Position numbers and translations under genes: made by a program. The notes under the pieces are model-generated. The model was given only the letters and a program-made list of their open reading frames with translations. It was not told the origin of the DNA and searched no databases. Shown one piece after another: positions 41,178-42,719 of a DNA stretch of 64,000 nt. The DNA lies in assembly GCA_963921275.4 (NCBI GenBank), contig OZ001293.3, forward strand, positions 6,176,001 through 6,240,000. Direction: 5' to 3'. The stretch comes from an uncultured Hormoscilla sp. (GTDB lineage Bacteria > Cyanobacteriota > Cyanobacteriia > Cyanobacteriales > Desertifilaceae). Positions within the stretch are counted from its first letter, which is position 1. Each line of letters starts with the position of its first letter.

Positions 41178-41498
41178 ATGAAAGATAGGTTAACAGTAAT
41201 TATCGCCCAGCTCCGCCAAGCCCTTGAAAGGATGTATGGAGAACAATTAGTTAAAATAGTGCTGTTTGGATCTCAAGGGAGAGGCGATGCTAGACATGAC
41301 TCGGATATTGATATCTTAATTGTTCTCAACCAGCCATTTAATTATGGAGATGAAAATGAACGAATTAGCTTTCCAGTTGCAGAAATTTGTCTAGAGTATA
41401 ATGTTCTAATTAGTTGTGTCTTGGCCACACTGGAGCAATTACAGCATAATAATGGTGGATTTTTCAGAAATGTTCGCAGAGAAGGAATAGCAGTATGA
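41178..41498 (+). CDS. Minimal nucleotidyltransferase (MNT)
   Basis: LFGSQGRGD...SDIDIL. Confidence 0.9.
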   Translation: MKDRLTVIIAQLRQALERMYGEQLVKIVLFGSQGRGDARHDSDIDILIVLNQPFNYGDENERISFPVAEICLEYNVLISCVLATLEQLQHNNGGFFRNVRREGIAV

Positions 41499-42719
41499 CT
41501 CCCGAACAACAGGGACTACTAGAAAAAGCTTCAAGAAGTCTGCAAGCTGCCAGAAGTTTAAGGGGAATTGGTTTTGCTGAATTTGCTGCCTCTCGTGCAT
41601 ATTACACCATGTTTTATGTGGCTGAAGCATTTCTAGAAGGGGAAGGACTATCTTTTTCTAGACATTCTGCTGTAATTGCGGCCTTTGGTCAACGGTTTGC
41701 TCGTACTCAGCGGGTTCCTGCTGAGTACCACCGCTACTTAATTAGTGCAGTGCGATTCGTTCTAGTCTAACGTGGGCAACTACGGAACGCTAGGCCAGGT
41801 CCAAACTGGTAACTCTGGTATTCATGGGGGTTAGATTCCCTCTCTCCAAGTGTGGGAGTAACACCGGTCCTTAGTGCTGCTGAGTCACATCACGGTGGTG
41901 CGGAGCAAGGACTTAAATGTAGGATAGCTAGCAGCCTAAGCTAGTGACGCCGCTAGGAAAGATGCTAATGGCTAGAACAAGCGAACCTGTGTACGCCTCG
42001 TTATCTAGAACCAGCGAAATAAGGCTTAAAGCGCTGGCCCAAAAGGGAAATGGTAGTTTGTGCTGGTTCTTGCACTTGGCCAGTATCGCACTCTAAGAAC
42101 TCCCGGGGTATAGCAGGGGCCTAAAAGCATCGTGAAATGATACTAGGGAACGAAGTAACTTCTCGTGTGCTGTCTAGATTGGACAAGTTAGATGTAAAGC
42201 GCAAGCCGCGAGGGGAGAGATAGCCCGAGAAGCTAATGCCTAGGGTAACGCCTATGGATATGATGGGGTGTTCCTCATCCAGCTGACGCGGGTTGGTTAA
42301 AGTAGGAAATCTTGGGTAAGAGTATCTCTAAGACGCCGGAGGCCTCTCGAAGGTTGGATGACTGGTAAAACAGACTTGGAAATGGTAATACTAAAGGTTA
42401 TCTGGCAGCGCCGCTTACCAACCAGGAAAGGAGTGAAATCGCATGAGATGAGGGACAAGTGGAGCAATCCGTAGTAATCCTAGTAGTGACAATGCCCTAC
42501 TTGCCAGTAGCCGGATGCGGTGAAAGTCGCACGTCCGGTTCCGAATGGGAGGGTTAGGGGGTGACCCCTAGCTCGACCCCGACTGAACAAATCCGTTTGA
42601 GGGGAGATTATAATGTAGAGCCAAATATAACAGACGTAGAAGCAGATAAAATAATAGATCGTGCCGAGCAATTGCTAGAATTTGCATTGGCAAACATTGA
42701 CTCACTCCCGCCTCCATAG
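41495..42719 (+). CDS. HEPN-domain protein split by a group II intron (exons 41495-41749 and 42585-42719; 129 aa spliced)
   Basis: ASRAYY, HSAVIAAF; spliced junction ...LISA|EQIRLRGDY... Confidence 0.88.
41750..42584 (+). mobile_element. ORF-less group II intron, copy A (835 nt)
   Basis: GTGCG start; DV AGCCGGATGCGGTGAAAGTCGCACGTCCGGTT; EBS1 TGCACT pairs with AGTGCA. Confidence 0.92.

What the first reader, a model, noticed from the sequence alone, without database searches (positions are those of the whole stretch)
41178..42719. Splicing-gated HEPN gene in an MNT-HEPN module
Seen: an 835-nt ORF-less intron with intact DV sits just before the RxxxDY motif. The unspliced product stops at 91 aa; splicing gives a clean 129-aa HEPN with both exons undamaged, unlike most neighbouring toxin-like genes. 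Inference: HEPN output depends on ribozyme splicing and perhaps a trans-acting maturase, a possible regulatory or addiction link. Toxicity of this HEPN subtype is not established.
Basis: partly seen in the sequence, partly recalled or inferred. Interest (0 to 1): 0.7.

Follow-up and report, generated by a model that had tools for sequence, protein, structure and literature searches.

The report
Selfish intron copy splits HEPN gene
A small toxin-like (class II HEPN) gene of a cyanobacterium is split by a protein-less group II intron, but that intron is one of about 72 near-identical copies scattered through the same chromosome, so it is most likely a recent chance insertion and not a purpose-built splicing switch.

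Summary
The anatomy is real. An 835-nt ORF-less group IIB intron (41750-42584) sits after codon 85 of a class II HEPN gene behind an intact MNT. Removing it gives a 129-aa protein collinear with intron-free homologues.

The regulatory or addiction reading is not supported:
- The intron is one of 72 full-length copies, 20 identical, with another 166 nt downstream.
- 22 of 55 distinct sites are sense insertions in genes, matching the 36% the target motif predicts (p=0.57).
- Related ORF-less introns split single-copy enolase and zwf.
- None of 110 homologous HEPN loci has an intron in the gene.
- Failed splicing would remove the putative toxin and keep the antitoxin, the reverse of addiction.
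- The HEPN lacks the RX4HXY RNase motif, and class II toxicity is unshown.

Best reading: recent EBS-guided retrohoming into a dispensable gene, likely spliced with a borrowed maturase and likely lowering its output. No RNA run was listed, so splicing is untested.

The chromosome holds about 440 introns, against a published maximum of 101. This scan has already reported that swarm from other windows of this genome.

The parts
41178..41498 (+). MNT (minimal nucleotidyltransferase) gene, 106 aa, with an intact GSX10DXD motif; overlaps the HEPN start by 4 nt; does not depend on splicing
   Evidence: PF01909 E 2.7e-12; translation; motif definition from PMC7641770
41495..41749 (+). HEPN exon 1, codons 1-85, including the conserved upstream His of the AF0298-like HEPN-T group
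   Evidence: PF05168 E 1.6e-8; PDB 9XBC/9XBD E 3e-20 and 2HSB E 0.002
41737..41742 (+). IBS2; pairs with EBS2 at 4 of 6 positions
41744..41749 (+). IBS1; 6 of 6 Watson-Crick pairs with EBS1
41750..42584 (+). ORF-less group IIB intron, 835 nt; one of 72 full-length copies on contig C1, 20 of them identical
42003..42008 (+). EBS2
   Evidence: varies with the target consensus across intron families; coordinates
42071..42076 (+). EBS1, in the loop of a domain I hairpin
   Evidence: local fold and cross-family variation
42111..42111 (+). EBS3 (U); forms a U-G wobble with the first base of exon 2
   Evidence: EBS3/IBS3 covariation over distinct sites: U-A 172, A-T 17, G-C 9, U-G 17, 20 other combinations
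42506..42583 (+). Domains V-VI: catalytic AGC triad and candidate branch A at 42576
   Evidence: Rfam RF00029 46.6 bits; fold
42585..42719 (+). HEPN exon 2, codons 86-129 plus stop; carries RxxxDY at codons 89-94
42697..42726 (+). Sigma-70-like promoter match (11 of 12) over the end of exon 2, pointing into the second intron copy
   Evidence: consensus match only
42751..43585 (+). Second copy of the same intron (2 differences), intergenic, upstream of a 5-formyltetrahydrofolate cyclo-ligase gene; best-scoring target site of the family

Best explanation
A class II MNT-HEPN gene pair has its HEPN gene split by one of 72 near-identical copies of an ORF-less group IIB intron, which likely arrived recently by guide-directed retrohoming and likely splices with a maturase borrowed from other introns, so it would at most dampen HEPN output and would not act as a dedicated switch. 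Shown: copy number and identity, boundaries, EBS/IBS pairing, restored reading frame, absence from homologues, and plentiful RT genes elsewhere in the genome. Inferred: the intron RNA, bound by a trans-acting intron-encoded protein, base-paired EBS1/2/3 to this site and reverse-spliced into it, as into about 60 other sites. The insertion is tolerated because MNT is still made, the unspliced 91-aa product lacks the C-terminal helices and RxxxDY, and the gene is dispensable. By analogy with Ll.LtrB (PMC6003770, abstract), excised intron from the many copies could re-target the spliced mRNA and lower it further.
For: 72 full-length copies at 60 distinct sites; 20 identical and most others within 1-5 substitutions. 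Site classes for the family are 27 intergenic, 22 sense and 6 antisense of 55, against motif-predicted 42%, 36% and 22% (sense p=0.57, intergenic p=0.34). The HEPN site is ordinary: PWM rank 41 of 55 and 2 EBS mismatches, the modal value. 24 of 71 copies restore an ORF when removed, including glutamate synthase, an EctB-like transaminase, a histidine kinase and a type ISP R-M enzyme. Related ORF-less introns split eno, zwf, prfC, queG, recJ and the class II RNR gene; eno, zwf and queG gave no second tblastn hit on C1. Of 80 top homologous loci 79 are continuous across the site and the other is frameshifted; 0 of 110 loci show a DV or intron 5' end in the gene; Rfam finds 0 hits in 15 loci chosen mostly as truncated. 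Same-genus G001 and intron-rich G004 have intron-free genes. Homologues are often broken: 8 of 80 and 4 of 14 have a stop inside the aligned stretch (some may be terminal stops), and the paralogue in this genome loses its frame near the C-terminus. RT supply: 93 RVT_1 matches and 51 RT ORFs, many 590-600 aa; best solved relative is the T. elongatus maturase 6ME0.
Against: No RNA evidence of splicing or expression exists for this locus. No intron-free allele from the same species was seen, so the insertion date rests on copy identity alone. Three toxin-like genes (this HEPN, a PIN and a DUF5615) carry sense introns against 0.61 expected (Poisson p=0.025 with the index case, 0.13 without; families chosen after the fact). 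Sense insertions exceed antisense slightly more than expected (22:6, p=0.08). The cognate maturase was not identified: the IEP-bearing introns share only short stretches with this RNA. Gene calls come from my own hexamer model, not a standard annotation.
Confidence: 0.85

Rival explanations
1. Effective knock-out: the insertion silences a dispensable toxin-like gene because splicing at this site is poor, and it is kept because muting a toxin is neutral or mildly beneficial. The gene is on its way to becoming a pseudogene.
For: IBS2 pairs 4 of 6 and IBS3 is a wobble. The paralogue is frameshifted. Many homologues are broken. There is a mild excess of toxin-like genes with introns. Antisense insertions, which cannot splice out of the mRNA, persist in 67 of 323 parsed cases.
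Against: EBS1/IBS1 is a perfect 6 of 6, which only 7 of 55 sites reach. U-G at EBS3 occurs at 17 sites. The intron is identical to the mobile form and both exons are intact.
Confidence: 0.1
2. Selected splicing gate or tripwire: HEPN is a real toxin whose output rises with maturase or RNP activity or with a splicing-permissive condition, so the cell senses intron activity or stress and arrests. The first reader's addiction variant belongs here.
For: Full-length HEPN does need splicing. The genome carries about 440 introns, so a brake could be useful. Group II splicing can be condition-sensitive (Ll.LtrB in the cold, PMC7293003, abstract). Mild toxin-gene excess.
Against: There is no conservation (0 of 110 loci) and the copy is identical to 19 others. 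Antitoxin-like genes (RelB-like, DUF2281, DUF433) also carry sense introns. Addiction would need the intron in the antitoxin. Class II HEPN lacks RX4HXY and its toxicity was untested as of PMC7641770. MNT lies upstream in the same predicted operon and would neutralise a slow rise in HEPN.
Confidence: 0.04
3. Assembly artefact: a repeat was misplaced into the gene.
For: Exon 2 had no cover in runs X1, X3, X4, X5 and X6, although the tool warns that holes prove nothing.
Against: Both junctions are on short-read contigs with 0 differences: exon 1 into the intron in X1-X4, and intron through exon 2 into the second copy in X2. The site pairs with the EBS motifs. No joint skipping the intron was listed.
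Confidence: 0.01

Closest known systems
ORF-less TeI3 group IIB introns of Thermosynechococcus elongatus BP-1, mobilised by TeI4 IEPs (Mohr, Ghanem and Lambowitz 2010, PMC2882425; passages read)
   Same: ORF-less IIB introns in families with their own EBS sets, good EBS/IBS pairing at sites, copies nested in RT ORFs, a few in genes, and cyanobacterial host. An IEP of this genome has the T. elongatus maturase as its best solved relative.
   Different: Scale: 72 copies in this family and about 440 introns in all, versus 28. About 40% of sites are sense insertions in genes, whereas few T. elongatus introns lie in genes. No closely related ORF-containing parent was found here.
ORF-less group II introns in protein-coding genes of Trichodesmium erythraeum (Pfreundt and Hess 2015, PMC4649490; passages read)
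   Same: ORF-less introns interrupt protein-coding genes; that paper states ten of 17 introns documented to splice in vivo lack an ORF.
   Different: In vivo splicing is shown there and untested here; the passages I read name no toxin-antitoxin host gene.
[quoted passage not shown] 2020, PMC7641770) = HEPN-T, AF0298-like (Anantharaman et al. 2013, PMC3710099); passages read
   Same: MNT upstream with GSX10DXD; HEPN of PF05168 with D in place of the motif H, a conserved Tyr and a conserved upstream His.
   Different: The HEPN gene is interrupted by an intron. Unlike class I HepT it has no RX4HXY, so RNase and toxin activity are not established.
Ll.LtrB intron in the pRS01 relaxase gene (PMC6003770 and PMC7293003; abstracts and outlines only)
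   Same: A group II intron whose splicing is needed for host-gene expression; it can lower host mRNA and respond to conditions.
   Different: Ll.LtrB encodes its own maturase (and, from recall, is subgroup IIA), and its effects are measured. Here the intron is ORF-less and multicopy and nothing is measured.

Membership tests
Group II intron | Domain V with AGC triad and domain VI with bulged A | tested here: met
   RF00029 46.6 bits over cut-off 40; fold
Group II intron | GUGYG 5' end and a defined 3' end whose removal restores the target | tested here: met
   Empty sites support the 835-nt boundary for 11 of 72 copies, the 834-nt boundary for 0; frame restored
Group II intron | Splices in vitro or in vivo | not testable with these tools
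   No RNA holder was listed
Subgroup IIB | EBS1, EBS2 and EBS3 pairing with IBS1-3 | tested here: met
   EBS1 6/6, EBS2 4/6, EBS3 wobble; covariation across families
Subgroup IIB | Full six-domain secondary structure and CL1/CL2 lineage assignment | tested here: inconclusive
   Whole-intron MFE is not better than shuffles (z -0.45); only local domains were folded; no lineage tree was built
Non-autonomous (ORF-less) mobile intron | No IEP ORF, yet multiple recent copies at EBS-matching sites | tested here: met
   Longest ORF 44 aa; 72 copies at 60 sites
Non-autonomous (ORF-less) mobile intron | An identified trans-acting IEP | tested here: inconclusive
   Many full-length RT ORFs exist; none could be assigned as cognate
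Class II HEPN/MNT module | PF01909 gene with GSX10DXD next to a PF05168 gene with conserved Tyr and no RX4H | tested here: met
   RxxxDY in 76 of 80 homologues
Class I HepT/MntA (type VII) toxin-antitoxin system | RX4HXY RNase motif, PF01934 or PF08780 | tested here: not met
   The motif is RxxxDY and the family is PF05168
Toxin-antitoxin system (functional) | Toxicity of HEPN and rescue by MNT | not testable with these tools
   PMC7641770 says class II still needed validation; searches found no later test
Regulatory or addiction intron | Conserved insertion, or a layout in which loss of splicing harms the host | tested here: not met
   0 of 110 homologous loci have it; the intron is in the putative toxin, not the antitoxin

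The most novel reading that the evidence does not exclude
In a genome flooded by about 440 group II introns, toxin genes that have caught an ORF-less intron (this HEPN, a PIN and a DUF5615 gene) act as tripwires: toxin output is coupled to maturase activity, so cells with runaway intron activity arrest. That would be a splicing-gated toxin-antitoxin system, which my searches did not find described.
Probability: 0.04. Interest if true: 0.75.

Novelty: new member of a known kind. Interest (0 to 1): 0.2.

Why it matters
On its own the locus is one instance among about a hundred intron-interrupted genes in this chromosome and says little new about toxin-antitoxin control. Its use is as a test case. 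Identical intron copies sit in a dispensable toxin-like gene, in glutamate synthase and in intergenic DNA, so one RNA-seq library would show how exon context sets splicing efficiency and whether trans-maturase supply limits it. The surrounding swarm (about 440 introns, over four times the 101 reported as the maximum in PMC8919778, with insertions in single-copy enolase and zwf) is the striking feature. It bears on how introns proliferate and come to share splicing factors, but this scan has already reported it from other windows of the same genome.

Tried and rejected
RNA evidence: no RNA holder was listed, so expression and splicing stay open.

Laid contigs of six runs of unrecorded kind listed no joint from 41749 to 42585. 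Exon 2 was uncovered in five of the six, which the tool says proves nothing. The 42584-42751 joint in X4 has a short side of 23 letters and was not used. Intron-to-flank depth ratios (about 70 in X3 and X4, about 45 in X2) fit a multicopy element, but the tool warns they are not copy numbers and the runs may be the assembly's source.

The 834-nt boundary ending in AC was rejected: it would put a stop at the junction and no empty site supports it.

Whole-intron folding was uninformative (z -0.45).

The search for a cognate ORF-containing parent found only short shared stretches. Two paired 'introns' with long ORFs look like IEP introns nested in ORF-less ones; I inferred this from a similar locus and did not resolve them.

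Homologues truncated near residue 85 (G249, G185, G326, G429, G011) were checked in case of recurrent insertion; none had an intron.

Flank synteny with homologous loci: essentially none within about 1.5 kb, so orthology is not established.

My intron parser paired 323 introns and left 115 DV hits unpaired, including most IEP-bearing introns; site statistics use the paired set only.

No paper on PDB 9XBC/9XBD or on class II HEPN toxicity was found; subscription papers and supplements were not seen. No structure or complex prediction was run.

Full report
Observation. The window holds an MNT gene at 41178-41498 (PF01909) whose stop overlaps the start of a HEPN gene at 41495 (PF05168 on exon 1). 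After codon 85 the frame enters a sequence that begins GTGCG at 41750 and ends with an Rfam group II DV-DVI hit at 42506-42583. Read through, the ORF stops at 91 aa. Removing 41750-42584 gives 129 aa, which aligns without gaps to intron-free homologues at up to 67% identity. I fixed the boundary independently. Eleven of 72 copies of this intron have an empty version of their site elsewhere in the genome, all with the 835-nt boundary and none with 834. Contigs from run X2 carry both junctions without differences.

The intron is not special to this gene. A second copy with two differences starts 31 nt after the HEPN stop. The genome holds 72 full-length copies at 60 distinct sites. Twenty are identical to this one, counting itself, and most of the rest differ by 1-5 bases. 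An HMM of DV-DVI finds 441 hits and a 5'-end pattern 448. My parser paired 323 complete introns, 308 of them under 1100 nt, covering 4.3% of C1, and left 115 DV hits unpaired. Miura et al. give 101 as the largest number per genome (PMC8919778, passages). Three of four same-genus genomes also nearly saturate an Rfam search (108-134 matches of 136 candidates scored).

Targeting explains the site. The family's sites share a motif. EBS1 (42071-42076), EBS2 (42003-42008) and EBS3 (42111) vary across families in step with each family's target. EBS3/IBS3 shows U-A 172, A-T 17, G-C 9, U-G 17 and 20 other combinations, with 20 introns unmatched by the pattern. At the HEPN site EBS1 pairs 6 of 6, EBS2 4 of 6 and EBS3 by wobble. 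Two mismatches is the commonest value among 55 sites, and the site ranks 41 of 55 by PWM. After removing introns in silico and calling genes with a hexamer model, 24 of 71 parsed copies lie sense in an ORF that removal restores, 6 antisense, 39 intergenic and 2 nested. On distinct sites, 22 sense of 55 matches the 36% expected from motif matches in the genome (p=0.57). The 22:6 sense excess is not significant (p=0.08).

Other host genes. Host genes of the same 835-nt intron include a glutamate synthase large subunit, an EctB-like transaminase, a histidine kinase, an alpha-2-macroglobulin, a type ISP R-M enzyme and a DUF5615 gene. Related ORF-less introns split enolase, zwf, prfC, queG, recJ and the class II ribonucleotide reductase. 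Enolase, zwf and queG gave no second tblastn hit on C1. I infer that introns of this kind must splice routinely in this cell; that enolase is essential is recalled knowledge, not tested here. An intact pair of exons around a fresh copy is thus the norm.

No conservation. Among the 80 best homologous loci from GTDB genomes (of 562 confirmed stretches), 79 are continuous across the site and one is frameshifted. Adding 14 loci from relatives and 16 hand-picked truncated ones, 0 of 110 have a DV or intron 5' end in the gene, and Rfam finds none in 15 of them. The HMMs were built from this genome's introns, but continuity rules out an insertion at this position. Same-genus G001 and intron-rich G004 have intron-free genes, although their flanks differ, so they are not proven orthologues. 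Homologues are often broken by stops or frameshifts, and the intron-free paralogue in this genome loses its frame near the C-terminus. The gene looks dispensable.

The module. MNT has GSX10DXD. HEPN is PF05168 with RxxxDY and an upstream His (RxxxDY in 76 of 80 homologues). This is class II of Yao et al. 2020, who note that it lacks RX4HXY and had not been validated as a toxin-antitoxin system (PMC7641770, passages). Anantharaman et al. 2013 suggest that the upstream His could form an alternative active site (PMC3710099, passages). Close structures exist (9XBC, 9XBD), but I found no paper on them. On the logic of addiction: unspliced RNA still gives MNT and only a truncated HEPN, so losing the maturase removes the putative toxin. 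Addiction would need the intron in the antitoxin.

Mechanism. The intron has no ORF over 44 aa. The genome has 93 RT matches and 51 RT ORFs, many of 590-600 aa and some with an HNH-like motif; the one I tested has the T. elongatus maturase as its best solved relative. Mohr et al. showed that such IEPs splice and mobilise ORF-less TeI3 introns in trans (PMC2882425, passages), and ORF-less introns in Trichodesmium protein genes splice in vivo (PMC4649490, passages). I infer the same here: recent retrohoming, splicing with a borrowed IEP, and some loss of HEPN output, possibly increased by intron RNA re-targeting the spliced mRNA as shown for Ll.LtrB (PMC6003770, abstract). The helper IEP was not identified, because the IEP-bearing introns share only short stretches with this RNA.

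Results against this reading. There is no RNA evidence either way. Three toxin-like genes carry sense introns against 0.61 expected from 28 kb of PIN, DUF5615, HepT and HEPN coding sequence (p=0.025; p=0.13 without the index gene; families picked after seeing the hits). Antitoxin-like genes (RelB-like, DUF2281, DUF433) are hit too, and small genes overall show 23 observed against 16.8 expected. So I read the excess as tolerance in dispensable genes. Group II splicing can be condition-sensitive (PMC7293003, abstract), so incidental conditional output is possible, but it would apply to all copies alike.

Prior notes. I recorded my reading before consulting the scan's earlier findings. Several agree on the swarm, and on similar single-gene cases in this genome. 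They are unchecked notes and add no independent support. A search of papers for an intron in a toxin-antitoxin gene listed nothing on point by title or abstract start.

Verdict. Observation confirmed; interpretation partly supported (splicing dependence yes, regulation or addiction no). It is a new member of a known kind, interest 0.2. The tripwire reading has probability about 0.04 and would deserve 0.75.

Noticed in passing
G000:C1, whole contig: About 440 group II intron DV-DVI hits; 323 paired introns cover 4.3% of the contig; the largest families have 139 and 71-72 copies. Over four times the published maximum of 101. Already reported by this scan from other windows.
   Followed up: partly
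G000:C1:1800238-1801136 (eno), 6446752-6447684 (zwf), 2134479-2135329 (prfC), 848632-849545 (class II RNR), 2638282-2639152 (queG), 5580677-5581511 (gltB): Housekeeping genes interrupted by ORF-less introns that restore a stop-free ORF when removed; the RNR gene also shows an intein-like match.
   Followed up: partly
window 42697-43585 and 43633-44196: A near-consensus promoter (11 of 12) at the end of HEPN exon 2 points into the second intron copy, which would then lie in the leader of the 5-formyltetrahydrofolate cyclo-ligase gene.
   Followed up: no
window 47364-48449, DV ends near 49850, 50212 and 59516: Further group II introns or intron ends in the window; two 3' ends lie 362 nt apart, suggesting nesting.
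   Followed up: no
window 44637-46141: A RecQ-like helicase gene (named from sequence by eye) is split over three reading frames: pseudogene or assembly indels.
   Followed up: no
window 22016-24370, minus strand: Fragmented RT-bearing group II intron; RVT_1 pieces at C1:6198802-6199340.
   Followed up: no
G000:C1:951992-952700 (L036): Intron-free paralogous class II MNT-HEPN pair whose HEPN loses its frame near the C-terminus.
   Followed up: yes
G000:C1, e.g. 2406917 and 4451358: The 835-nt intron recurs at one site inside multicopy RT-bearing elements (twintron-like); empty versions of that site also exist.
   Followed up: partly
G002, G003, G004: Same-genus genomes also carry over 100 group II intron hits (capped by the search), while G001 and other genera of the family have 0-5; G001 is fragmented, so its count may be low for that reason.
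   Followed up: no
PDB 9XBC, 9XBD: Solved structures of a close class II HEPN homologue exist with no paper found in the held library.
   Followed up: partly
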